A stretch of 64,000 nt of DNA, from assembly GCA_903844645.1 (NCBI GenBank), contig CAIMUP010000006.1, forward strand, positions 2,055 to 66,054, written 5' to 3'. Each line of letters begins with the position of its first letter. Position 1 is the stretch's first letter. Below are positions 3,723-57,742 of the stretch, in pieces. A model generated the notes under the pieces. The model was not told the origin of the DNA. It worked only from the letters and a program-made list of their open reading frames with translations, and did no database searches. Position numbers and translations under genes: made by a program. Source of the stretch: an uncultured Bacteroidota bacterium (GTDB lineage Bacteria; Bacteroidota; Bacteroidia; AKYH767-A; JABDAW01).

Positions 3723-3762
3723 ATACTTTTATTCGCGATAGCTTTTATCGTATTCATCGTCG

Positions 3763-4367
3763 TATTGTTGCACCGCAAGGGCGGATGCAATCATACCACG
3801 ATGAAATTAGTATTAAGGATGGAATAAAACATGATGATGGCGAAGTTTTTCATCAAAAAGGGCAAACAAGGTATCAGAATCCCGACCAAAGCGATGCTTC
3901 TGAAAGGTTTTTCAATGGAGATGGCACCCATTACTATGGTATAAAAAATCAAAACCATAGTTATTGTTACTAAAAGGTATCTTATTGTTACTAAAAGGTA
4001 TCTTTTTGTTACTAAAACGTAAGTTATTGTTGCTATAAGGTAAGTTATTGTTGTTATAAGGTAAGTTATTGTTGCTATAAGGTAAGTTATTGTTGCTATA
4101 AGGTAAGTTATTGTTGCTATAAGGTAAGTTATTGTTGTTATAAGGTAAGTTATTGTTACTAAAAGGTATCTTATTGTTACTAAAAGATACGTTTGAGTTT
4201 TTTTGGCATATGTTTAAGCTACTATTTGTATCCCAATCACTTCAGCCACCATCGAAAAACCTTCCAGAAGCATTGCCTCGGTCGTGATTGTTAATCCTTG
4301 TTTGCCCTGTTTGATACTTTTTTCATCATCTTATTATGATTGCATCCGCTTTGGCGGTGCAACAATA
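3763..4367. mobile_element. MITE-like non-autonomous element. It has ~33-bp terminal inverted repeats enclosing a 21-bp tandem array.
   Basis: The left TIR 'tattgttgcaccgcaagggcggatgcaatcata' is at 3763-3795. The right end at 4335-4367 is 'tatgattgcatccgctttggcggtgcaacaata', whose reverse complement matches the left TIR except for the central 5 nt. The element exactly fills the gap between two convergent genes. Confidence 0.4.
3959..4192. repeat. tandem array of ~11 copies with a 21-bp unit ('aaggtaagttattgttgctat' and variants)
   Basis: Direct reading of the sequence shows a 21-nt periodicity. Copies diverge at 1-3 positions. Confidence 0.9.
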
Positions 4368-4399
4368 ATAGGATGATGGGTATTCTTATGAATAAGGTA

Positions 4400-8216: not shown

Positions 8217-8418
8217 ACGGTAGTTTTTGTTTTTTATCGTGGCAAAAATAGAAATTAAAATATCAATAGCCAAAGAATCGGGAATAATAGTTGAGGATTG
8301 GAGAATTATTTTGCCCTTGGTCGGCGACTTCGGAGGAGAGTCGGAATCGAGATTTATCCCTAAAAACCCTCCAAAATGCCCCATTTTCCCAAAAACGACA
8401 TGCTTTTACGTTGTGGCT

Positions 8419-8670
8419 CCATCCGCGCGGATGGAACCCATCTGGAGCATCCGACATCTCCCAGCCACGCGGATGGAACCCATCTGGAGGAAGGAATGCC
8501 TCCCAGCCGTGCGGATGGAAGCCATCTGAAGGAAGGAATGCCTCCCAGCCACGCGGATGGAAGCCATCTAAAGGAAGGAATGCCTCCCAGCCCTGTGGAT
8601 GGAAGTTGTCGGAAGGAAGGAATACCTTCCAGCCACGCGGATGGGAGCTATCGAATGCTCCCTATCGAAT
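8419..8670. repeat. tandem array of ~6 copies with a 42-bp unit ('cccagccacgcggatggaagccatctgaaggaaggaatgcct')
   Basis: It was read directly and lies between the porin start and the nuoL stop. ORF-track entries 8291..8722 and 8376..8672 are stop-free artefacts of this array. Confidence 0.9.
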
Positions 8671-12104: not shown

Positions 12105-12181
12105 AACTAATATATTTTTATTTTATGATATTTAAGGCTGCTAAAGTATAAAAAAAGCCATTTATAAGGTAAATCACCTTG

Positions 12182-12575
12182 AAAACACCGTCGCTGGACT
12201 TCCTCCAACGGGCGTTGGAATCATCCCAACGGGCGTTGAAACCGTTCCAATGCCTTTTGGAGCCTCCCAATGAGTCTTGAAACCATTCTAACGTCCGTTG
12301 AAACCATTCCAACGGGCGTTGGAACCGTTCCAACGCCTTTTGTGCCTCTCCAACGGGCGTTGAAACCATTCCAACGGGCGTTGGAGGAAGTCCAACGACG
12401 GTCAAAAACCCTTCAAATCGCATATTCGCACCGCCGAATCCAATATTCTTACCGTCGAATCGCATTCTCACACCGCCGAATCCAATATTCGCACCGTCAA
12501 ATCGCATTCTCGCACCGCCGAATCCAATATTCACACCGTTGAATCGCATTTCTTTATGCCCGAATCCAATATTAT
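12182..12575. repeat. two consecutive 21/42-bp tandem arrays
   Basis: The first unit is 'ccaacgggcgttgaaaccatt', flanked by inverted repeats at 12187-12210 and 12379-12402. The second unit is 'cgcattctcgcaccgccgaatccaatattcgcaccgtcaaat'. ORF-track entries 12118..12585 and 12270..12542 are artefacts of these arrays. Confidence 0.9.
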
Positions 12576-12578
12576 CCA

Positions 12579-12911
12579 TTACCACTTCAATTTATTCAAA
12601 AGATTAATGTCAATAGACTTGATATTCCGGAATATCATCACGATTATCGCTAATCCTACCGCTACTTCTGCTGCCGCTACTACCATGATGAAGAATACAA
12701 AGACCTGTCCTGCGGCATCTGAACGGTAGGTCGAGAAGGCTGTAAGGAGAAGCGTTGCGGCATTCAGCATCAATTCAATGGACATAAAAATAATGATGGC
12801 ATTCCGTCTGATTAATACCCCAAGAACTCCGATAGAAAAAAGTATCGCACTCAAATAAATATAGTGCTCTATCGGGATGGTTTTGGCGATATGTGTAATC
12901 TGGTCTGTCAT
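12579..12911 (-). CDS. nuoK: NADH-quinone oxidoreductase subunit K
   Basis: The 110-aa 3-TM protein ends in '[15 protein letters not shown]...[14 protein letters not shown]'. Confidence 0.9.
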
Positions 12912-22103: not shown

Positions 22104-22355
22104 ATCCCCTGAAACATGTTTGAAGGGCTTTGAAACATGTTTGAAGGGCTTTGAAACTATTCTTGAGGGCTTCAAGAATAGTATGTGGAGAGCAAATACT
22201 ATTATGTGGAGAGGAAATACTATTATGGGGAGAGGAAATACTATTATGTGGAGAGCAAATACTATTATGGGGAGAGCAAATACTATTATGTGGAGAGGAA
22301 ATACTATTATGTGGAGAGGAAATAATAGTATGTGGAGAGGAAATACTATTCTTGC
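22104..22355. repeat. two abutting 21-bp tandem arrays joined by a palindrome ('catgtttgaagggctttgaaa' x3, then 'tatgtggagaggaaatactat' x9)
   Basis: It was read directly. The junction 'ctattcttgagggcttcaagaatag' is palindromic. ORFs 22099..22392 and 22151..22399 are artefacts of these arrays. Confidence 0.9.
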
Positions 22356-26603: not shown

Positions 26604-26770
26604 TGAGATTTCCTGAGTGAAACCCCATATTTCCTGAGTGAAACCCCATATTTCCTGAGTGAAACCTGAGATTTCCTGAGTGAAACCCGAGATTTCCTGA
26701 GTCAAAACCGAGATTTCCTGAGTCGAAAATCGTCTTTTATCAAAGCAAAAAGGGTTTCGACTCAGGAAAT
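26604..26770. repeat. tandem array of ~6 copies with a 21-bp unit ('atttcctgagtgaaaccccat') and a terminal inverted copy
   Basis: It was read directly. The cap pair is 'tttcctgagtcgaaa' at 26714-26728 and 'tttcgactcaggaaa' at 26755-26769. ORF 26454..26807 is an artefact of this array. Confidence 0.9.
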
Positions 26771-28725: not shown

Positions 28726-28924
28726 AAAAGTCATTATTAATTGAAATTGGCAGCAACCAACTACCGGTTGGCAGCGCAGGAACTTCTAATTTTTGGTTTC
28801 GAGGAATCGGTACTAGGGGTGGAATTTTTTTATTGTCAGGATATTTTTTACTTTTGCCCCCGTAGATAAATCGGGGATGCCGAAAACCGAATAGAGTAAG
28901 CGCAAAAAATTAAAGAATAATACA

Positions 28925-31900
28925 ATGAATAAAATGAAACAAGCAACCATGAACCTAAGAACAGTCGGGAAAAGCGTTCTTCAGATGTTACTTATTATCG
29001 GCTTCACGCTGGGGATTAATACCATGGCGAATGCGATGAAATTAAGCAGCAGCATTGCCGCGACCATGTCCGCAATGAGAACACCCTGCCCTCCGCCAGA
29101 TCAGCCGGATGTGATCACCGGGAATGTTGTAATCTGTCCTCCCGGATCGCCGCAAACGTACTCTATTCCAGTCGTTACCGGAGCGACGGATTATACCTGG
29201 ACCTTGCCTTCGGGATGGACCGGAACTTCCACAATAACGACCATTGATGCTACCGCAGGAACGGTTGGCGGAACCATTACCGTTACCGCGAATAACGCTT
29301 GCGGAAGCAGTATTCCGCGAACCTTGGATGTGGTAGTGAATACGGAATTATTTCCGGTAATCACCGCGATGGGTCCTACTTCTTTTTGCTTTGGTGGTTC
29401 CGTCATCTTGGATGCAGGGGCAGGCTACGCTTCCTATACCTGGAATACAGCTGGGACGGATGAAACCATCACGGCAACTGCCAGCGGCACCAGCTCTGTT
29501 ACCGTTACCGATAATTATGGATGCCTTGGCGTGGCTACGCAAGATATTTTTGCGAATGCATTGCCGACACCGCATATACTTACCTTCGCCGATTCGACAT
29601 TTTGTTTAGGCGATTCTGTTCAATTGGAATCAGGGAATTTTAATTTGAATGCACTCGTTCCTTATACCAATTGGAGTTGGAGTTCGGGAGAAATCACAGA
29701 GGTTGTTACCGAGCATGCACAAGGAATTTATACCGTTACCGTTACCGATATGAATGGCTGCACGGGAAGCAAATCGGTACATGTTACGGTAAATCCACAT
29801 CCTACTCCGACGATTACCTCGGCAAGTCCTTTTACCTCTTGTTTAGGCGGTTCCATTGTTTTGGATGCAGGAGTTTTTCCGCAATATCATTGGAGCACTT
29901 CTAACATCGGAGAAACCATTACTGTATCAGCTACAAATACCTATTCGGTAACCGTAACGAATAGTAATGGATGTACCGGAACGGCTTCGGTGAATGTGAA
30001 TTTATTAGCAGGACCAGCACCTACGATTACTGGGATTTTATCTTTCTGCTCCAATACCCCAGGCACCACGTTGGATGCAGGAACTTATACTTTATACTCC
30101 TGGAGTAATGGCGGAACAGACGAGACAACAACGGCTACCACTGCGGGAACATATACCGTTACTGTAACAGATAATGTGGGCTGTACAGGAACGAATTCCG
30201 TAACCGTAACGATGAATACATCGCCTACACCAAGTATCACCCCAAGTGGTGCTACCAGTTTCTGTGCTGGAGGATCAGTATCCTTAGATGCGGGGATTTT
30301 TGCCTCCTATCTTTGGAGCAGTACCGCCACAGGAGAAGCAATAACAGCTACCGCAAATGGAACTTACATTGTTACCGTTACCGATATGAATGGATGTACC
30401 GGTTCGGCATCTCAAATGGTTATTGTCAGTCCAGCTATTAATGCTGTTATCACTGCAAGTGGGGCTACCACTTTTTGTGCGGGAGGCTCTGTAACATTAG
30501 ATGCAGGGACTTATACATCATACTCTTGGAGTAATACTGCCACCGATCAAACAATCATGGTTGCTGCTTCGGGAATTTATTCGGTAACGGTTACTGATAA
30601 TATCGGATGTACAGGAATAGCTTCGCAGATTGTTACCGCAAATACCAATCCTACACCGACCATTACTCCGAGTGGTTCTACCACTTTTTGTAGCAATACC
30701 TCAATTACTTTAGATGCCGGAGTTTACTCTTCTTATTTATGGAGCAATGCGGCAACAGATGAAATAGTAACTGCCTCGTCCAGTGCAATGTGGACAGTAA
30801 CGGTTACCGATGCGAATGGATGTACCGGAACAACTTCTGTTACCACCACATTCAATGCAGCACCATCACCAGTAATTACTCCAAGCGGACCGACCACATT
30901 TTGTAGTGGAGGATCAGTAACATTGGATGCTGGAGTTTATTTATCTTATATCTGGAGTAATACCGAAACTAATGAAATGACAACAGTAAATACAAGTAGT
31001 AATTTTATGGTTACTGTTACCGCCGCCAACGGATGTACCGGAGCGACTTCGCAAATGGTTACAGCTAACCAAAATCTCAATGTAAATATATCCGCAAGCG
31101 GTCCAACTTCATTTTGTGCCGGGGGGACGGTTATCTTAAGTCCTGGATTTTATTTGAGTTATCTTTGGAGTGATGCAAGTACCGATGCAACATTAATGGT
31201 TAATACCGCAGGGACTTATTCTGTAACTGTTACCGATGGGAATGGATGTACAGGTGTAGCTTCACAAGGAGTCATTATTAATTCAAATCCAACACCAACA
31301 ATTACCCCAAGCGGTTCAACAACATTCTGTAGTAATAACTCTATAATGTTAGATGCAGGGGTTTATGCTTCGTTCATCTGGAATACTTCCGAAACTAATG
31401 AAACAATTACCGCATCAACAGCTAATACATTCAGTGTTACCATTACTGATAATAATGGATGTACCGGAATAGCTTCTATCATAACAACGGTGAATATTGC
31501 CCCTTCTATTTCAATCGCAGCGAGTGGTTCAACAACCTTCTGTAATGGAGGTTCGGTAACTTTAGATGCAGGATCAGGTTTTACTATTTATACTTGGAAC
31601 AATACAGGGACTGATCAAACAACAATTGTAATGACTGGAGGAAATTATATTATAACTGTTACAGATGCAAACGGATGTACCGGAGCAGCAAGCCTCATGG
31701 TTACTGTTAATGCAAGTCCTACCCCTTTGATTACACCGAGTATTTCTGCCAATATCTGTGCAGGCACTTCTGAAACATTGGATGCTGGGGTTTATGCAAC
31801 ATACCTTTGGAGTACAACTGGAACAGATGAGATGATTTCAGTTAATGCATCAGGGAATAACAGTGTAACTGTTACTGATATGAATGGATGTACAGGATCT

Positions 31901-34900
31901 GCTTCATTGATAATTACGGTAAATACAAACCCAACTCCTTCAATAACTCCAAGTGGATTTACAACATTTTGTGATGGAGGTTCTATAACCTTGGATGCAG
32001 GAGTTTATGTTTCCTACATTTGGAGCAATACAAGCACCAATCAAATGACTACAGTAATGACAAGCAGTAATTACATAGTAACTGTTACAGACATTAATGG
32101 CTGCACTGGAATTGCTTCTCAAATGGTTGCCGTTAATTCTAATCCTATTACTATAATAACCGCTTCTAGTTCCACTACTTTCTGCATTGGGGGCTCTGTA
32201 ACTTTAGATGCCGGTGTATTTGCATCTTACATGTGGAGCAATGCTGGAACAGATGAAACAACAATAGTAACAACGGGTGGCATCTATTCTCTAACAATAA
32301 CTGATATGAATGGTTGCACTGGAATAGCTTCACAAACAGTTACAGTAAATCAATTACCATTACCAACCATTACCTCAAGCAACTCAACTACGTTCTGTGC
32401 CAACGGTTCAATCATATTGGATGCTGGAATGTATTCGACTTATCTGTGGAGTAACACAGAAACGGATGAAACTATTATTGTTAATTTATCGGGTACTTTT
32501 TTAGTAACTGTAGCTGATGGAAATGGTTGTACAGGTATAGCTTCAATAACAACAACAGTTAATGCAAATCCAACTCCTTCCATAACACAAAATGGAGCTA
32601 TTCTTAATACAGGTATTTATTCTTCCTACTTATGGAGTACCGGAGCCACTACAGACTCTATTAATGTCTTGGTAAATGGTACTTATACCGTTACTGTTAC
32701 TGATGCGAACGGATGTACTGGTTTAGCTTCAATGGTAGTTTCGAGTACGGCTTGTGCAGATGTTGGTGCTGGTGCAGCTTATATAACAAATCAGCTTGAC
32801 AATACCGTATCAGTTATTAATATTGCAACAAACACTGTTACAGCTACAATCCCTGTTGGTAATCATCCTGTTGGAGTATCAGTTAGTCCAGATGGAACTA
32901 AGGCATATATTGCGAATGAATTTGGTCCTTCAATAAGTGTAATAAATACTGCTACAAATACTGTTTCGGCTACAATTAGTGTTAGTGGTGCTCCTTATGG
33001 TATAGTAGTAAGCCCAGATGGAAGTAAAGTATATGTTGCAAATGTCAGTGCCAATTCAGTAAATGTAATAAATACGGTTTCAAACATTGTTTCTACTACA
33101 ATTCCAGTTGGTCTTTCTCCTGAAGGAATAGCGGTGAGCCCTGATGGGACAAATGTATATGTTGCGAATCAAAGTGATAATGCAGTAAGCGTAATAACTG
33201 CTGCAACAAATACAGTATCAGTTACAGTACCAGTTGGTGCTGATCCTTTTGGTTTAGTTGTCAGCCCTGATGGAAGTAAGGTATATGTTACTAATGAAAC
33301 CGGAGGTACAGTAAGTGTAATAACCACTGCTACGAATACTGTTTCAGCTACAATTAATGTTGGTATTGCTCCGCAGGGTATATCCATGAGTCCTGATGGG
33401 AGTAAGGCGTACGTTGTGAATGGAAATTCTAATTCAGTAAGTGTAATAAATACAGTTACCAATACTGTTTCAGCTACGATTCCGGTTGGTAGCGACCCTT
33501 GGGGTATATCTGTAAACTCAGATGGAAACATGGTATATGTCGTAAATGATAACTTTACTGGTACGGTAAGTGTAATAGACACTTTAACCAATACTGTTAC
33601 AGCAACAATTACTGTTGGTTCTGGTCCTGCTGGGTTTGGTAATTTCATTTCTGCTTCCACATCCCTTACCCCTGTTATCACTGCTAATGGTAATACAACT
33701 TTCTGTCAAGGTGGTTCTGTTACTTTAGACGCAGGAAGTTATACTTTTTACCTTTGGAGTAATGGTGCAACAACAGAAACAATCACAGCCATTGACAGTT
33801 CCAATTATTCTGTAACTGTTACTAATGTAAATGGTTGTACGGGAGTTGCCTTGCAATTGGTTACTGTTCATGCAAACCCAATTCCATCAATAGCTGCCAA
33901 TGGACCGACAAGTTTCTGTAATGGAGGTTCTGTTACTTTGGATGCAGGAAACTATACATCATACAATTGGGATGATGGGGACTTTACAGAAACAACAATT
34001 ATAATGAATAATGGATTATCATCTGTTACAGTAACAGATGGAAATGGGTGTACTGGAGTTAGTTCTCAAATGGTAACAGTAAATCCTAGTCCCACTCCAA
34101 CTATAAGTCACTCCACTCCAACAACATTCTGTAGTGGAGATTCTGTAGTGTTAGATGCTAATGTTTACCTTTCTTACATATGGAGTACTTACGCTACAAC
34201 AAGAAAGGTTACTGCTACAACAGGTGGCACTTTTTCAGTTACCGTTACTGATGTTGACGGATGCACAGGGGTTACTTCAATAAATGTAATTGTACATAAT
34301 AACCCTAATCCAATAATTACAAATACGGGGAGTCTTACTTTTTGTGACGGTGGATCAGTAATATTAGATGCTGGTATTTCTTATACCTCATACTTATGGA
34401 ACACTGGGGAAACCGATCAAATGGAAACTGAATTCTCTGGAGGTACTTATTTCGTTATTGTTACTAATGGTAATAACTGTACGGGTAGTGCATCAATAGA
34501 TGTTGTAAATAATCCATTACCTAATCCAGTCATAACACCCAATGGTCCGGTGAACTTCTGCGTAGGAGGTTCTGTTACTCTTGATGCAGGTATTTTTAAC
34601 TCTTATATTTGGAGTACTACTGAAACAACCCAATCAATTGCAACAACAAATAGCGGAACATATGATGTTACGGTAACTGATATTAATGGTTGTACAGCCA
34701 CTGCTTCACAGGTAGTAGTAGTTTCATTAAATATTACATTCAGCATTACACCAACTGGTCCGACTACCTTCTGTAGTGGTGGTTCTGTAACTCTTGATGC
34801 AGGTGTTTACAATTCCTATAATTGGAGTACATCTGAAACAACAGAAACAATTTCCGTTTCAACTTCAGGAACATATACTGTAACTATTACTGGCAATAAT

Positions 34901-37900
34901 GGCTGCTCGGGTACATCTTCAATAACAACAGTGGCTAATCCTTTACCAACACCTTTAATTACAGCAAGTGGTCCGATTAGTTTTTGTGCGGGAGGCTCTG
35001 TAACATTAGATGCGGGAATATACACTAACTATATTTGGAGTACTACAGCAACAACCCAGACAATTAATTCTAATAATAATGGGAATTATTCGGTGACAGT
35101 TACTGACGCAAATGGTTGCACCGGAAGTACATCTCAAACTATTTCAGTTTATGCTAATCCTATTCCTTCAATAATCTCAAATAATCCGACCACATTCTGT
35201 ATCGGAAGTTCAACGACCTTGGATGCTGGATCTTTTTCTTCTTATGTATGGAGTTCTTCTGAAACTTCTGAAACAGTAACTGTATCTACTGCTGGAACTT
35301 TCATGGTTACTGTTACCGATTCTCATGGCTGCACAGGATCAGCTTCCCAATCTATAATTGTAAACACATTACCAACTCCAATAATAACGGCGATTGGTCC
35401 GACTAGTTTTTGCAATGGTGGTTCAGTTAATTTGGATGCCGGTACTTTTGTTTTTTATAATTGGAGTTCTGCTGCTACTACTGAAATTATTACTGCCGCT
35501 ACCAATGGAGTCTTTGGTGTTACTGTTACGGACAACAACGGATGCACTGGAATCACATCGCAAGCTGTAACAGTCTATAGTAACCCTAATCCTACAATTA
35601 CACCTAATGGTCCTACGAGTTTCTGTGATGGAGGAATGGTTGATTTGAATGCAGGTTCTTTTGTTTCGTTTGCTTGGAATACCGGTGAAACAGATCAAAT
35701 CGTTACCGAGTATTCTAATGGTACTTATCTGGTAACTGTTACTGATAGTCATGGATGTACGGGAGAAGGTTCAATACTTGTAACTGTTTATTCGCTTCCG
35801 AGTCCGACAATTACTCCAAGTGGACCAACAGTATTTTGTAATGGAGGTTCTGTTACGCTTAATCCAGGAAGCTATGCGAGTTATTTATGGAGTACTGGTG
35901 CTACAACTGCTTCTATTTCTGCTACTATAGCAGGCACTTATTCTGTAACCATTACAGACAATCATGGTTGTACAGGATCTGCTTCACAAACGGTTACCGT
36001 TAATCCATTACCGATAGCATCTATTACTCCAAACGGACCAACTTCATTCTGTCAGGGTGGATCTGTAGTATTGGATGCCGGAAATGCGCTTACCTATCAT
36101 TGGAATACAGCAGCGACAACCGAATCTATCACAGTTACCGTTAATGGTGTATATTATGTAACCATATCGAATGGTTTCAATTGCACTTCCGTTACTTCGC
36201 AAGTGGTTACTGTAACGACCAATCCTATTCCTGTAATATTTGCTAATGGTCCCGTAACATTCTGTGCCGGAGATACGGTAAGTTTAGATGCCGGTGTATG
36301 GTCTTCTTACCTTTGGAGTACAGGAGCAACTACTGAAACGATAACTGAAACGATTTCCGGGACATATACTGTAACCGTTACCAATATCGGGGGGTGTACG
36401 GGTTCTACATCGAGCATTGTTACTGTAAATACAAATCCTACTGCTGCTATTACTCCAAGTAGTACTACTACATTCTGTCAGGGTGGTTCTGTATTCTTAA
36501 ATGTGGGTGCTTATGCTTCATTCATTTGGAATACGGGGGCTACCACGGGAATAATTTTGGCAACAAACAACGGTACTTATTCAGTAACGGTTACTGATGT
36601 GAATGGATGTACTGCTATCGCTTCAATCAATGTTACTGTGAATGCAAACTCTACTCCTGTGATTACGCCAAGCGGTCCTATTTCCTTTTGTGCGGGTGGT
36701 TCGGTGAATCTTGATGCTGGTTCTTATGCTTCTTACCTTTGGAATACGGGGTCAACGATTCAAACGCTTTCAAACATTAATTCGGGCGGCACATATATGG
36801 TTACTGTTACGAATGGAAACGGTTGTACAGGGACAGCATCCATACTTATTACCGTAACGGTGATTCCTACTCCGAACATTATTGTTAATGGTCCGCTGAC
36901 ATTCTGTAGTGGTACCGATTCTGTTCAATTTGATGCCGGAAACTTTGCCTCTTATTCCTGGAGTACGGGTGCTACTACCCGAAGAATTGTTGTATTCACC
37001 AGCGGAACGTACATTGTTACGGTAACGAATGCCGGTGGATGTACAGGATCATCAAATCGGGTGGTAACGGTGAATCCTACCCCGAATCCTACCATCGTTC
37101 CGAACGGATCGGTTACCTTTTGTATCGGAGGTTCCGTCAATCTGGATGCAGGAGTCTATCCTACTTATCATTGGAGCACAGGTGCGACGACAGAAACCAT
37201 TAATAATATCAATACATCCGGTACTTACATGGTAACAGTAACCTCGGCTGCCGGATGTTCTGCCACGGCATCACAAGTAGTTACCGTTAATGCTTTACCG
37301 ACACCGATTATCACGGCGAATGGACCGATCATGTTCTGCATCGGGGGAAGCGTAACGCTTAATGCGGGAGTAGGATATACTAACTACATTTGGAGCACCG
37401 GAGCGACGACCAATACCATTAATGTATCGGCAGCAGGAACGTATCATGTAACGGTTACGAACAACAATGGCTGTACTGGGTTTACATCGCAAACAATTAC
37501 CGTCAATCCGCTTCCTAATCCAACGATTACGGCTAACGGTCCCCTGACATTCTGTAGTGGCGGCAACATCATCTTAGATGCCGGCAATTGGTCCACTTAT
37601 CTTTGGAATACAACGGCTACAACGGAGACCATTACGGCTTCTTCTTCAGGAACATACAGTGTTACCATTACGAATAACAACGGTTGTTCAGCCTCCACGG
37701 CTCAAACGGTTACCGTCAATCCTCTTCCGACCGTTACCGATACTTCTACCCTCTCAAATGTATGTATTCAGTGGGCTATCTTCAATCTTAACGGCGGCAT
37801 TCCGGCAGGCGGAACGTATTCAGGAATAGGAGTGGTTTTAAATCAGTTCAATCCGAACCTTGCGGGGCTTGGAACGAGAACGATTACCTATATTTATACC

Positions 37901-38227
37901 GATGGAAACGGTTGTACGAACTCGGCGACGCACAATCTGATCGTGAATCCTTGTACCGACGTGCCAACGATTACCGATGCCGATTTCGTAACGCTATTCC
38001 CGAATCCTAACGACGGTAATTTCACCGTTAAGTATTCTGTTTCGACTGCCGTTACGGCAATCCGAGTAGTGGATATTACCGGAAGGATCGTCCTTATCCA
38101 CACCTTATCCGGCATTGAGGGAAGCCAGGAAATCAATGCCTCCGACCTTGCGAAAGGAGTGTATTATTACGAAGTGATGACCACCGATGCCATCCTTGCG
38201 AAAGGCAAAATGGTGATCGTAAAATAA
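28925..38227 (+). CDS. giant 3100-aa T9SS-secreted adhesin-like protein. It has ~35 tandem ~80-aa Ig-like (HYR/SprB-like) repeats, an embedded YVTN-type beta-propeller, a distinct penultimate domain and a T9SS type-A sorting domain.
   Basis: A signal peptide is present. Repeats follow the pattern '[24 protein letters not shown]...ITA...GTY.VTVTD.NGCTG..S'. The propeller region at 32750-33650 carries '...[25 protein letters not shown]...SPDGSKVYV' about 8 times. The C-terminus is '[15 protein letters not shown]...[11 protein letters not shown]...KMVIVK'. Confidence 0.85.
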
Positions 38228-38288: not shown

Positions 38289-38319
38289 TTGGTTCTTTTT
38301 TACCTTCCCGTTTTTCTTT

Positions 38320-38900
38320 GGAGATGATGGGTGAAATCAGGTTTGATACCCGATATTTTCCTGAAATCATTCGTTTTTTTCCTGAAATCACTCCTATTTT
38401 CGGGAATTTGAGGCGTGATTTTGGGAATTTGATGCATCATTCCAAAACCGTTACTCGTCTATTACACGCATTATCAAGTCATTTTCACGAAACAGGTCGT
38501 CATAAAAAGTAAACACATCGTCTTTTCGATGAAACTTATCGTAGTTTCGATGAAACTGGGTGCAGTTTCAATGCAACTGGGTGCAGTTACGATTAAACTG
38601 GGTGCAGTTTCAATCAAACTGGGTGCAGTTTCATTGCAACTGGGTGCAGTTGCATTGAAACTGCACCCAGTTTCATCGAAACTACGATAAGTTTCATCGA
38701 AAAGACGACAAGATGCATTTAAAAGACGATAAGATGCATCGGAATGACGAATAAAAAACTTGGAATGACGAATCATTTAAGAGGAATGACGAGTCTTTTT
38801 CTTGGAATGATTCGTAGTTTTCTTGGAATGATGTGTCTTTTCTTTGGAATGATTCGTATTTGATTTGGAATGACGAATAGATGGATCAGAATGACTTATA
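38320..38900. repeat. compound region of at least three different 21-bp tandem arrays, with an orientation flip through a perfect palindrome
   Basis: The unit families are 'cctgaaatcattcgttttttt', 'tcgatgaaactgggtgcagtt' and 'cttggaatgacgaatcattta'. The perfect inverted repeat 'aactgggtgcagtt/gcattgaa/aactgcacccagtt' lies at 38638-38673. ORFs 38318..38512 and 38474..38776 are artefacts of these arrays. Confidence 0.9.
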
Positions 38901-43699: not shown

Positions 43700-43835
43700 C
43701 GTTCTCTTGGTGTCCCCCGCGATGGCGGTGGTGCCCAAAAAAGTGGCGGTGGCGTTCCCCGCGATGGCGGCGGTGTCCAAAAAAGTGGCGGTGGCGTCCA
43801 CCGCCACTTTTTTGGACGCCACCGCCAAGGTATTT
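43700..43835. repeat. 42-bp tandem array ('ccccgcgatggcggtggtgcccaaaaaagtggcggtggcgtt') ending in a 16-bp-stem palindrome
   Basis: It was read directly. The palindrome 'aaaaaagtggcggtgg cgt ccaccgccactttttt' lies at 43779-43813. It sits in the divergent promoter region between the 1525-aa gene and the 43889 gene. ORFs 43616..43828, 43666..44016 and 43686..43880 are artefacts of this array. Confidence 0.9.
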
Positions 43836-45760: not shown

Positions 45761-45828
45761 GTTTTTAATGGAAATCGGGGTTGAAATTAGCGTAATTGAC
45801 CTCCATAAAACAAAAGTTTAAGCCTACT

Positions 45829-45965
45829 ATCTTACGCTAATTGCCTGCTCACTTACGCTAATTGCCTGTTCACTTACGCTAATTCTGACCTCACTTACGC
45901 TAATTGCCTGCTCACTTACGCAAACTATCAGCCCACTTACGCAAATGCTGACCTCGGTTACGCTT
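45829..45965. repeat. tandem array of ~6 copies with a 21-bp unit ('cacttacgctaattgcctgct')
   Basis: It was read directly. Confidence 0.9.
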
Positions 45966-57266: not shown

Positions 57267-57332
57267 TCGTTTTATTATTTAATTTTCGTTAATTGTATTA
57301 TAAATCAGTGTATTGTTGCATGAGAAAGCATA

Positions 57333-57545
57333 TTATCTACGCCAGATAATGTATAATCTAAGCCAGCGGGACGCCCCGCTGACCGTGAAGGGAGCCCCGC
57401 TGACGCAAAAGGTATCCCCGCCGACCGCGAAGGGAGCCCCGCTGGCGTAAAAGGTATCCCCGCTGACCGCGAAGGTATCCCCGCTGACCGCGAAGGTATC
57501 CCCGCTGGCGCAGATAATATCCCCGCTGGCGTAAATAATCCGGAA
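57333..57545. repeat. TIR-flanked tandem array of ~8 copies with a 21-bp unit ('ccgctgaccgcgaaggtatcc')
   Basis: The TIRs are 'attatctacgccag' at 57333-57346 and 'ctggcgcagataat' at 57505-57518. ORFs 57305..57622 and 57358..57588 are artefacts of this array. Confidence 0.9.
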
Positions 57546-57656: not shown

Positions 57657-57742
57657 CTAGTAGAGTAGAGTATAGTAGAGTAGAGTATAGTATAGTAGAG
57701 TAGAGTAGAGTAGAGTAGAGTAGAGTAGAGTAGAGTAGAGTT
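57657..57742. repeat. simple hexanucleotide repeat (tagagt)n of about 14 copies
   Basis: It was read directly. ORF 57657..57896 is an artefact of this repeat. Confidence 0.9.

What the first reader, a model, noticed from the sequence alone, without database searches (positions are those of the whole stretch)
26604..26770. Arrays are capped by inverted copies of their own unit or bounded by short TIRs
Several arrays end in a hairpin made from an inverted unit or are bracketed by inverted repeats:
- Array 26604-26770 ends with 'tttcctgagtcgaaa' (26714-26728) and its reverse complement 'tttcgactcaggaaa' (26755-26769).
- Array 43700-43835 ends in 'aaaaaagtggcggtgg cgt ccaccgccactttttt' (43779-43813).
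- Array 38320-38900 reverses orientation through the perfect palindrome 'aactgggtgcagtt gcattgaa aactgcacccagtt' (38638-38673).
- Array 12193-12410 is bracketed by 'accgtcgctggacttcctccaacg' (12187-12210) and 'cgttggaggaagtccaacgacggt' (12379-12402).
- Array 57333-57545 is bracketed by 'attatctacgccag' and 'ctggcgcagataat'.
This recurring architecture looks like a rolling-hairpin or snap-back amplification footprint, or a mobile-element structure. Plain replication slippage would not produce it.
Basis: seen in the sequence. Interest (0 to 1): 0.7.

Follow-up and report, generated by a model that had tools for sequence, protein, structure and literature searches.

The report
21-bp repeat arrays with inverted caps
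In this uncultured Bacteroidota genome about a third of the DNA between genes is 21-bp tandem repeats, and roughly a third of these arrays carry a reverse-complement copy of their own unit at an end, a real and non-random feature most likely made by replication strand-switching and not by a transposon.

Summary

- **Strings:** all quoted strings exist; one has a one-base transcription slip.
- **Significance:** 6 of 38 array flanks hold an inverted match to their own array that beats all 648 mismatched array/flank controls. In 16.9 kb of the same genome outside the window, 4 of 9 further arrays do too.
- **38.5-kb "palindrome":** it is part of a perfect 62-nt inverted repeat.
- **One family:** five arrays share a layout of inverted unit, 26-nt spacer, then direct array. 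The two arms differ between loci but stay exactly complementary (8 of 16 pairs changed on both sides, none on one side only).
- **Limit:** about half of the arrays have no inverted copy.

**Background.** The arrays belong to a published but unexplained class: tandem repeats of constant size (20-21 nt) and variable sequence.

**Strain comparison.** Near-identical strains differ only by whole units (multiples of 21 bp) inside the arrays. Ends and caps are unchanged.

**Against a mobile element.** I found no target-site duplications, shared termini, transposase or empty sites. Rolling-hairpin amplification does not fit long direct arrays.

**Most likely origin.** Short-range template switching at hairpin-prone units, with ordinary slippage changing copy number. 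A functional hairpin or a protein-binding module is not excluded.

The parts
26605..26728 (-). Focal array: 5.9 copies of a 21-nt unit (gagatttcctgagtgaaaccc on the + strand). On the - strand it is the direct-array part of a five-member module family.
   Evidence: TRF; 21-nt rows; copy number differs between strains by -21 and at least +42 bp, only among the identical internal units.
26713..26770 (.). Cap hairpin of the focal array: arms 26713-26728 and 26755-26770 (16/16 complementary) with a 26-nt spacer at 26729-26754. The arm centres are 42 bp apart (2 x 21).
   Evidence: DNA fold -18.1 kcal/mol, z = -4.2; aligned with four paralogous modules, covariation.
43708..43827 (.). Array of 42-nt units (two 21-nt halves) ending in a palindrome: 43775-43794 / 43798-43817 (20/20, 3-nt loop). 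Extended arms are 30 nt at 93%.
   Evidence: fold -36.4 kcal/mol, z = -10; terminator-like on both strands; strain L095 has one extra 42-bp unit, and strains L087/L096 have 2 uncompensated changes in the left arm.
38518..38708 (.). Perfect 62-nt inverted repeat (38518-38579 / 38647-38708), each arm about 3 units, around a 67-nt block of direct units.
   Evidence: 21-nt rows show one register across 38312-38900; identical in strain L095.
12187..12402 (.). Array of palindromic-core units (tccaacgggcgttgga + 5 nt) bracketed by 12187-12210 / 12379-12402 (23/24 complementary).
   Evidence: identical in strains L085 and L086.
57330..57539 (.). Two inverted units (57330-57373) followed by eight direct units (57374-57539). 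The inverted units match the subtype of the two rightmost direct units (15/16 for 57330-57345 against 57505-57520).
8415..8652 (.). Array of 42-nt units whose first core (8419-8434, ccatccgcgcggatgg) is a perfect 16-nt palindrome. The other five cores are quasi-palindromes (5-6 of 8 pairs).
45783..45964 (.). One inverted unit copy (45785-45799, 14/15) lying 31 nt upstream of array 45831-45964.
22154..22354 (.). Hairpin at the junction of two arrays (22154-22166 / 22172-22184). Array 22182 is bracketed by 22173-22186 / 22341-22354 (13/14). Unit 22320 carries an in-situ inversion of a 10-nt stretch.
   Evidence: +105 bp in strains L081 and L083.
3754..4376 (.). Long imperfect inverted repeat (3754-3925 / 4245-4376; best 67-nt core 84% complementary) flanking array 3959-4193. 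The arms are not made of the array unit.
   Evidence: the array is 84 bp shorter in strain L085 with arms unchanged.

Best explanation
The arrays belong to the published class of bacterial tandem repeats with a constant unit size (20-21 nt, two helical turns) and variable sequence. Here they sit at very high density in an uncultured Bacteroidota genome.

**Copy number (shown).** It changes by ordinary whole-unit slippage or unequal exchange among the near-identical units in the array interior.

**Caps and brackets (shown).** They are DNA-level inverted duplications of one to three array units.

**How they arise (inferred).** Short-range template switching makes them and keeps them matched to the array. 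During replication, the nascent strand in a hairpin-prone unit switches to the complementary strand or folds back on itself. It copies a stretch in the opposite orientation and then switches back. Many units have a dyad-symmetric core, which favours this.

**What this accounts for.**
- the single change of orientation in each array;
- arms that are more perfect than neighbouring direct units;
- clustered changes that perfect a palindrome;
- an inverted spacer;
- strictly Watson-Crick co-variation of the two arms across paralogous modules.

The structures are not transposons and not products of rolling-hairpin replication. What sets the 21-bp period remains unexplained.
For: **Known class.**
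- Period 21 is the only periodic signal in the spacers, with peaks at exactly 21, 42 and 63. It covers 34% of intergenic bases against 1.3% of coding bases (TRF).
- The class is described in PMC8161180.

**Interior slippage.** All length differences between near-identical strains are multiples of 21 and internal.

**Inverted copies are non-random.** 6 of 38 flanks in the window and 4 of 18 flanks out of sample exceed all 648 control pairs.

**Template-switch signatures.**
- Core 8419 differs from the consensus at exactly the two positions that make it a perfect palindrome.
- Unit 22320 has atactattat replaced by its reverse complement.
- The inverted repeats of 62, 20 and 16 nt are 100% complementary, while direct units in the same arrays match only 63-90% in the period-21 TRF rows.
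- Arm homogenisation, spacer inversion and clustered multi-nucleotide changes are the documented outcomes of template switching. I take this from the abstracts of PMC8604942, PMC7202029 and PMC9435742 listed.

**DNA-level complementarity.** In the five-module family, 8 of 16 stem pairs changed on both sides and none changed on one side only. No G-U type intermediates are seen. 87.5% of cells are paired, and 0 of 500 shuffles reach that.

**Dyad symmetry.** Units have longer perfect dyads than shuffled units (mean arm 4.13 against 3.41, sd 0.17).
Against: - No polymorphism was caught in which a cap appears or is perfected, so the direction of each change is inferred, not observed.
- Sporadic template switching does not by itself explain why five modules in three spacers share a spacer of exactly 26 nt with a conserved sequence. 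That needs common descent by an unknown duplication or dispersal route, or selection.
- In module down4 the inverted unit matches the interior consensus unit 18/18 but not the two adjacent units. This needs long-range templating or selection.
- Perfect complementarity is equally expected if a hairpin, a cruciform or two-orientation protein binding is under selection.
- The mechanism says nothing about why the period is 21.
Confidence: 0.5

Rival explanations
1. **Functional DNA module.** The phased 21-bp units are binding sites for a lineage-specific DNA-binding or nucleoid protein. The inverted unit, exactly two periods away on the same face of the helix, is a functional partner site, or the hairpin or cruciform itself is the signal. 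This resembles iterons plus an inverted-repeat operator, or the tandem-repeat centromeres of plasmids. Selection keeps the arms matched.
For: - The 26-nt spacer has no indels in the five modules, so the arm centres are exactly 42 bp apart.
- Some stem positions are invariant (T17/A62, G18/C61, C22/G57, A25/T54).
- GGAAA/TTTCC occurs in 7 of 23 units, against 1.1 expected from shuffled units and 6.8% of random window pieces of that size.
- Units are enriched in dyad symmetry.
- PMC8161180 itself proposes protein polymerisation on constant-size repeats.
Against: - Unit sequences differ greatly between arrays, from AT-rich to units such as ccccgctgaccgcgaaggtat, so one protein cannot read them all.
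- About half of the arrays have no inverted partner.
- Arrays occur in convergent, divergent and tandem spacers alike, so no link to promoters is evident.
- Strains L087 and L096 carry two uncompensated changes in one arm of the 43779 palindrome.
- The motif enrichment was found post hoc and is only modestly significant family-wise.
Confidence: 0.22
2. **Non-autonomous mobile or foldback-type element.** The structure would be inverted terminal units with one terminus amplified in tandem, like Drosophila foldback elements or pneumococcal BOX elements, spread by a transposase encoded elsewhere in the genome.
For: - Five homologous modules lie in three different spacers up to about 41 kb apart.
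- Several arrays are bracketed by inverted units (12187/12402, 22173/22354, 38518/38708, 57330/57539).
- The habit is lineage-specific, as expected after an invasion.
Against: - No target-site duplications or shared outer termini at any bracket or module.
- Termini differ from array to array.
- No transposase or RAYT-like gene appears in about 90 kb of gene calls.
- No empty site was seen. All strain differences are internal unit changes.
- Two of the three spacers hold adjacent pairs of modules, which local duplication explains.
Confidence: 0.1
3. **Transcribed structured RNA.** The arrays are transcribed and the cap pairs with a unit to form a long stem that acts as a terminator, a processing or stability signal, or part of a small RNA.
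For: - Strong predicted hairpins (z = -4 to -10).
- The 43790 palindrome with A and T runs on either side looks like a bidirectional intrinsic terminator.
- PMC8161180 reports transcription of the 52-nt repeat class in Bacillus coagulans.
Against: - Only 1 of about 10 caps is terminator-like, and it sits between divergent gene starts. Terminator-like sites are not enriched over shuffles.
- No Rfam family matches any array.
- Stem covariation shows zero G-U type single-sided changes among 80 cells, which is unusual for a stem selected at the RNA level.
- Module orientation relative to the flanking genes is not consistent. This is my own reading from the coordinates of the arrays and the called genes.
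Confidence: 0.1
4. **Chance matches or assembly artefacts.**
For: - Palindromic unit cores give some trivial reverse-complement matches (self-RC scores of 10-20 for arrays 12204, 14235, 22110 and 38543).
- Short-read assemblies often break at these arrays.
Against: - Scores exceed all 648 mismatched controls and all shuffles, including arrays whose units are not palindromic (26605, 43708, 45831, 57374).
- The pattern replicates out of sample.
- The sequences are identical in independent assemblies from several samples.
Confidence: 0.02

Closest known systems
Constant-size (20-21 nt), variable-sequence tandem repeats of bacteria (Subirana & Messeguer, J Bacteriol 2020, 202:e00229-20; Int J Mol Sci 2021, PMC8161180)
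   Same: - Exactly 21-nt period
- Many arrays with unrelated units in one genome
- Non-coding
- Species-specific
- Hints of a short shared word
- Two helical turns noted as a possible meaning
   Different: - The host is an uncultured Bacteroidota. The 2021 paper names Bacillus and other Firmicutes, Cyanobacteria and Actinobacteria.
- The density is very high: 19 arrays in 64 kb, about a third of the intergenic DNA.
- The readable 2021 paper uses 'inverted' only once, for interspersed repeats in general, and never 'palindrom' or 'hairpin', so it does not describe inverted caps on these arrays. The 2020 paper could not be read here.
Quasi-palindrome template-switch mutagenesis and short-range template switching. 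Ripley's model and the E. coli work of the Lovett laboratory are from my own knowledge. PMC7202029, PMC8604942 and PMC9435742 are cited from their abstracts as listed.
   Same: - Imperfect inverted repeats become perfect through clustered changes
- Spacers invert in place
- Short inverted copies of nearby sequence are created
   Different: - Here the substrate is a tandem array, so the inverted arm can be templated from any of several units and tracks the array as it evolves.
- Arms of up to 62 nt (three units) are larger than typical quasi-palindrome events.
BOX elements of Streptococcus pneumoniae (boxA-(boxB)n-boxC) and Drosophila foldback elements (own knowledge)
   Same: Modular layout: partly complementary ends that can pair, with a short module amplified in tandem; located between genes.
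   Different: - Those families share one sequence across the genome and are regarded as mobile.
- Here each array has its own unit and termini, apart from one five-member family.
- No target-site duplications or transposase were found.
Iteron-type plasmid origins and tandem-repeat centromeres such as sopC of F and parC of pSK41 (own knowledge)
   Same: Direct repeats of about 20-22 bp in helical phase, plus an inverted copy of the same site nearby; units that contain a dyad-symmetric core.
   Different: - These arrays are chromosomal and present in most spacers of 100 bp or more (13 of 17).
- No rep or par gene lies next to them.
- The sequences are unrelated between arrays.

Membership tests
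Constant-size variable-sequence tandem repeats (Subirana & Messeguer) | Unit length constant at 20-21 nt across the arrays of one genome | tested here: met
   TRF gives about 19 arrays with period 21, 42, 63 or 84. Autocorrelation peaks only at lags 21, 42 and 63.
Constant-size variable-sequence tandem repeats (Subirana & Messeguer) | Unit sequence differs between arrays or families | tested here: met
   Consensus units. The 16-mers of each array do not recur elsewhere beyond chance. One five-member family of related units exists, as the papers also describe families.
Constant-size variable-sequence tandem repeats (Subirana & Messeguer) | Not protein-coding | tested here: met
   All arrays lie between long ORFs. 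The overlapping ORFs have no Pfam match. Unit variation shows no excess at third codon positions.
Constant-size variable-sequence tandem repeats (Subirana & Messeguer) | Species-specific occurrence | tested here: met
   There are none in 21 kb of a relative with a 58%-identical protein (L093). About 2 non-coding arrays occur in 1.5 Mb of other Bacteroidota loci.
Constant-size variable-sequence tandem repeats (Subirana & Messeguer) | A short characteristic word shared by the repeats of a species | tested here: inconclusive
   GGAAA/TTTCC is in 7 of 23 units, and GAAA/TTTC in 12 of 23. The binomial p against window background is 7e-4, but the word was picked post hoc.
Quasi-palindrome / template-switch products | Clustered changes that convert an imperfect inverted repeat into a perfect one, or invert its spacer | tested here: met
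   Core 8419 has 8/8 pairs against 5-6/8 in its sister cores. Unit 22320 has atactattat replaced by ataatagtat.
Quasi-palindrome / template-switch products | Ancestral and derived states observed directly (polarity of the event) | not testable with these tools
   The available strains are nearly identical and carry the same caps. DNA of the sister species (P0002, 73% identity) is not held.
MITE / foldback / BOX-like mobile elements | Target-site duplications flanking the terminal inverted repeats | tested here: not met
   The flanks of nine brackets or caps and of the five modules show no matching direct repeats.
MITE / foldback / BOX-like mobile elements | The same termini at many dispersed copies | tested here: not met
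   Termini are array-specific. HMM, PWM and covariance-model scans find only five related modules in three spacers.
MITE / foldback / BOX-like mobile elements | Empty sites in related strains | tested here: not met
   No empty site occurs in any strain contig. All differences are internal multiples of 21 bp. The strains are very close, so this test is weak.
MITE / foldback / BOX-like mobile elements | A partner transposase in the genome | tested here: inconclusive
   None appears among the Pfam-annotated gene calls over about 90 kb. The rest of the genome was not available.
Iteron origin / plasmid centromere | An adjacent rep or par gene and a single locus per replicon | tested here: not met
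   The neighbours are housekeeping genes (PSP1, GldH, nuo, metK and others). Arrays occur in 13 of 17 spacers of 100 bp or more.
Intrinsic terminators | GC-rich stem with a short loop followed by a T run, placed at a gene's 3' end | tested here: not met
   Only the 43790 palindrome qualifies, and it lies between divergent gene starts. The other caps have 23-32 nt loops or no T run.
Rfam RNA families | A match at the gathering score | tested here: not met
   The only hit in the window is DUF805b at 28870-28902, outside any array.

The most novel reading that the evidence does not exclude
The capped arrays are a distinct, lineage-specific class of genetic element. The layout is a hairpin module with a variable stem, a fixed 26-nt spacer and one arm amplified in 21-bp phase. 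It would either be propagated by a still unknown mechanism that measures length, or serve as a cis-acting platform, for example for a nucleoid protein that recognises phased sites and a terminal inverted site. In that case the arm complementarity is maintained because it is needed. The caps would then be the first structural clue to how the constant-size bacterial repeats are made or used.
Probability: 0.2. Interest if true: 0.8.

Novelty: new variant of a known kind. Interest (0 to 1): 0.55.

Why it matters
Constant-size, variable-sequence tandem repeats are a published puzzle. Nobody knows what sets the 20-21 nt size or what the arrays do.

This genome is an extreme case. It adds a feature that the one paper on this repeat class that I could read does not describe: a sizeable fraction of arrays carry an inverted copy of their own unit, and that copy evolves in step with the array.

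- **If the caps are template-switch products**, the arrays are natural hot spots for a mutational process that is otherwise hard to observe in bacteria. They would also be a source of new hairpins and palindromes next to genes.
- **If the caps are maintained by selection**, they point to a hairpin or to two-orientation protein binding, which would give the first experimental handle on the function of the arrays.

There is also a practical consequence. The arrays break short-read assemblies and give rise to false "hypothetical protein" gene calls.

Tried and rejected
**Hypotheses tested and rejected**
- **Coding repeats.** The ORFs overlapping the arrays have no Pfam match and unit variation shows no codon-position bias.
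- **Known RNA families and tRNAs.** Neither overlaps an array.
- **Terminators.** Terminator-like sites are not enriched, and only one cap qualifies.
- **Dispersed copies of units or termini.** The 16-mers of each array (up to 2 mismatches) recur in the window at chance level. This test proved too strict: a diverged five-member family came to light only when sequence outside the window was read.
- **Target-site duplications and shared outer termini.** None were found.
- **Consistent side for the cap.** In tandem spacers the cap faces the downstream gene's start in only 3 of 4 informative cases, which is not significant. This is my own reading.

**Searches that found nothing useful**
- **More module members.** An nhmmer profile, a PWM of the spacer and a covariance model found no further members in the window, the extensions or 1.1 Mb of relatives.
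- **Spacer motif in viral contigs.** There were 7 hits. By my rough estimate of the collection's size that is no more than chance for 16 specified bases, and I did not follow them up.
- **Closer relatives, for an empty-site test.**
  - The genome and metagenome scans reached only 66% and 64% protein identity.
  - DNA of the 73%-identity sister (P0002) is not held.
  - The 58% relative has no arrays and a different downstream gene.
- **The one clear array in another MAG** (L040). It has no inverted copy.
- **The 2020 J Bacteriol paper.** It could not be read.

Full report
**1. What is at the coordinates**

Positions 26605-26728 hold 5.9 copies of a 21-nt unit, gagatttcctgagtgaaaccc. The last unit contains atttcctgagtcgaaa at 26713-26728. 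Its perfect reverse complement lies at 26755-26770, 26 nt further on.

The other four examples in the finding are also present.
- The 38638 palindrome was quoted with one extra base.
- The two 57.3-kb strings lie at 57332-57345 and 57505-57518 and are 13/14 complementary.

**2. Context: a genome full of 21-bp arrays**

TRF finds about 19 separate arrays in the 64 kb, all with period 21 or a multiple of it, and nearly all with different units.
- They lie between long ORFs.
- Identity-by-lag in the spacers has sharp peaks only at 21, 42 and 63 nt.
- Period-21 windows cover 34% of intergenic bases and 1.3% of coding bases.
- The 38312-38900 spacer keeps a single 21-nt register throughout while its units gradually change.

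The organism is a Bacteroidota member: the window encodes GldH, type IX secretion sorting domains and PSP1. The nearest genomes and metagenome contigs reach only 64-66% identity for PSP1.

The habit is lineage-specific.
- A relative whose DUF3857 protein is 58% identical has no such arrays in 21 kb.
- 1.5 Mb of other Bacteroidota loci hold about two non-coding arrays of this kind.

The ORFs that overlap arrays have no Pfam match, and variation between units shows no excess at third codon positions.

[quoted passage not shown] That paper uses "inverted" only once, for interspersed repeats in general, and never "palindrom" or "hairpin". I could not read their 2020 paper.

**3. Are the inverted copies more than chance?**

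For each of 19 arrays I took the best ungapped reverse-complement match between the array and its own 120-bp flanks.
- The 648 mismatched array/flank pairs gave a maximum score of 11.
- Six of 38 real flanks scored 12 to 36, and none of 100 dinucleotide shuffles reached any of them.
- Four of these six arrays have non-palindromic units (26605, 43708, 45831, 57374), so the matches are true inversions.

Further inverted repeats lie inside the TRF bounds:
- the 12187/12379 bracket (23/24);
- a bracket around array 22182 (13/14);
- a hairpin at the junction of arrays 22110 and 22182;
- a perfect 16-nt palindrome as the first core of array 8419.

The largest is a perfect 62-nt inverted repeat, 38518-38579 / 38647-38708, made of three unit types per arm and enclosing 67 nt of direct units. 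Array 3959 is flanked by a long imperfect inverted repeat that is not made of its unit.

As an out-of-sample test I fetched 16.9 kb of the same genome beyond both window ends, from a 94-kb contig of a near-identical strain. Nine more period-21 arrays were found, and four of them have an inverted flank copy scoring 14 to 21.

The pattern is therefore real, but it covers roughly a third to a half of the arrays, not all of them.

**4. What near-identical strains show**

Exact-protein look-ups returned contigs from several independent samples. Every length difference in an array-bearing spacer is a multiple of 21 and lies among near-identical interior units:

| Array | Difference between strains |
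|---|---|
| 3959 | -84 bp |
| 22182 | +105 bp |
| 26605 | -21 bp, and at least +42 bp |
| 43708 | +42 bp |

- Arrays with diverged units are identical between strains.
- The ends and the inverted copies never differ, with one exception: strains L087 and L096 carry two uncompensated changes in one arm of the 43779 palindrome.
- No empty site was seen.
- Caveat: these are short-read assemblies. Several contigs break, or carry a gap of N bases, at arrays.

**5. A family with a conserved module**

Reading the out-of-window arrays showed that four of them, together with the focal array read on the minus strand, are homologous.
- Each has an inverted unit of 16 nt or more, a 26-nt spacer, and then the direct array.
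- The spacer has no indels in any of the five and contains the conserved pattern AAAC-N2-TTTTT-C..GGA..AA.A.
- The centres of the two arms are 42 bp apart, which is exactly two periods.
- The arm sequences differ between loci but stay complementary:

| Measure on the 16-pair outer stem | Result |
|---|---|
| Pairs with a change on both sides | 8 of 16 |
| Pairs that vary on one side only | 0 |
| Cells that form a standard pair | 87.5% |
| Shuffles reaching that pairing percentage or the covariation score | 0 of 500 |
| Cells paired when the 3' partner is slid by 1-3 columns | 17-51% |

The complete absence of one-sided G-U type changes points to exact reverse-complementarity at the DNA level, not to an RNA stem evolving by compensatory steps. 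With five sequences this is suggestive, not conclusive.

In one module (down4) the inverted unit matches the interior consensus unit 18/18. It does not match the two adjacent units, which are almost identical to the focal array's first units. The inverted copy therefore tracks the bulk of its array.

An HMM, a spacer PWM and a covariance model found no further members in the window, the extensions or 1.1 Mb of relatives.

**6. Mechanism**

Slippage explains the copy-number changes but cannot invert DNA.

Rolling-hairpin replication predicts copies that alternate in orientation, which is not what is seen.

A transposon predicts target-site duplications, shared termini, a transposase and empty sites.
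- The first two are absent.
- No transposase appears among the gene calls for about 90 kb.
- No empty site was found, although the strains are too close for that to be a strong test.

Short-range template switching fits best. The abstracts listed (PMC8604942, PMC7202029, PMC9435742) describe its known outcomes as homogenised arms, inverted spacers and clustered multi-nucleotide changes. All of these are present here:
- Core 8419 differs from its sister cores at exactly the two positions that make it a perfect palindrome.
- Unit 22320 has a 10-nt stretch replaced by its own reverse complement.
- The arms are 93-100% complementary, while direct units in the same arrays match only 63-90% in the period-21 TRF rows.

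Units are also richer in dyad symmetry than shuffled units, which would favour hairpin formation and strand switching.

I rate this explanation at about 0.5. No event was caught in progress. The conserved 26-nt spacer and the three-spacer distribution of one family need either common descent by an unknown duplication route or selection.

**7. Rivals**

- **Functional DNA module** (phased protein binding with a partner site in the opposite orientation, or a cruciform). The exact 42-bp spacing, the invariant stem positions and the enrichment of GGAAA/TTTCC-type words keep it alive. The great diversity of units, the many uncapped arrays and the uncompensated changes in one strain argue against it.
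- **RNA role.** This is weakly supported. Only the 43790 palindrome is terminator-like, and it lies between divergent gene starts. No Rfam family matches an array.
- **Chance or artefact.** This is excluded.

**8. Verdict**

It is partly wrong: this is not rolling-hairpin amplification, and nothing supports a mobile element.

The arrays belong to a known but unexplained class. The self-complementary caps, their concerted evolution with the arrays and the conserved five-member module appear to be a new feature of that class.

Noticed in passing
window 1-64000 (all spacers of 100 bp or more): Period-21 arrays occupy about 34% of intergenic bases and occur in 13 of 17 spacers of 100 bp or more. 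No other period is present. At 19 arrays per 64 kb this is a very dense case of the constant-size repeat phenomenon.
   Followed up: partly
window 12118-12585 (- strand): Two adjacent arrays form one open reading frame of 155 codons with a 14-residue repeat (NIGFGGxRMRFDGx). It sits inside the nuo operon, overlapping the nuoK stop and ending 14 nt before the next gene. Gene callers annotate it as a protein. It has no Pfam match and no codon-position signal. The operon also carries non-nuo genes between nuoK and nuoL.
   Followed up: partly
window 28870-28902 (+ strand): Rfam match to the DUF805b RNA motif (37.9 bits, gathering score 35.6) just upstream of the 3100-residue secreted protein gene at 28925-38227.
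   Followed up: no
window 57659-57741: A pentanucleotide microsatellite, (AGTAG) x 16.6, lies in the same spacer as array 57374. It has the same length in the strains compared.
   Followed up: partly
window 32819-33490: 126-bp repeats (5.3 copies, 70% matches) inside the 3100-residue ORF. They are coding repeats, unrelated to the intergenic arrays.
   Followed up: no
window 3754-3925 and 4245-4376: A long imperfect inverted repeat (arms of about 130-170 nt, best core 67 nt at 84%) fills the convergent spacer around array 3959. It is not built from the array unit, and its origin is unexplained.
   Followed up: partly
L083 (N gap within the focal array), L084, L087/L096, L088, L091/L092 (contig ends): Independent short-read assemblies break or leave gaps exactly at the arrays, so these repeats fragment metagenome assemblies of this organism.
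   Followed up: partly
L040 184-416 and L034 2500-2717: Two other Bacteroidota MAGs each carry one period-21/84 array with related units (ttttcgtttccg...), which also contain TTTCC. The L040 array has no inverted copy.
   Followed up: partly
window 22249-22265 (against L082), 57490-57492 (against L089), 43784-43786 (against L087/L096): Between otherwise identical strains, the substitutions inside arrays come in tight clusters of 2-4 within a few bases to 17 nt. That suggests exchange between units or template switching, not independent point mutations.
   Followed up: partly
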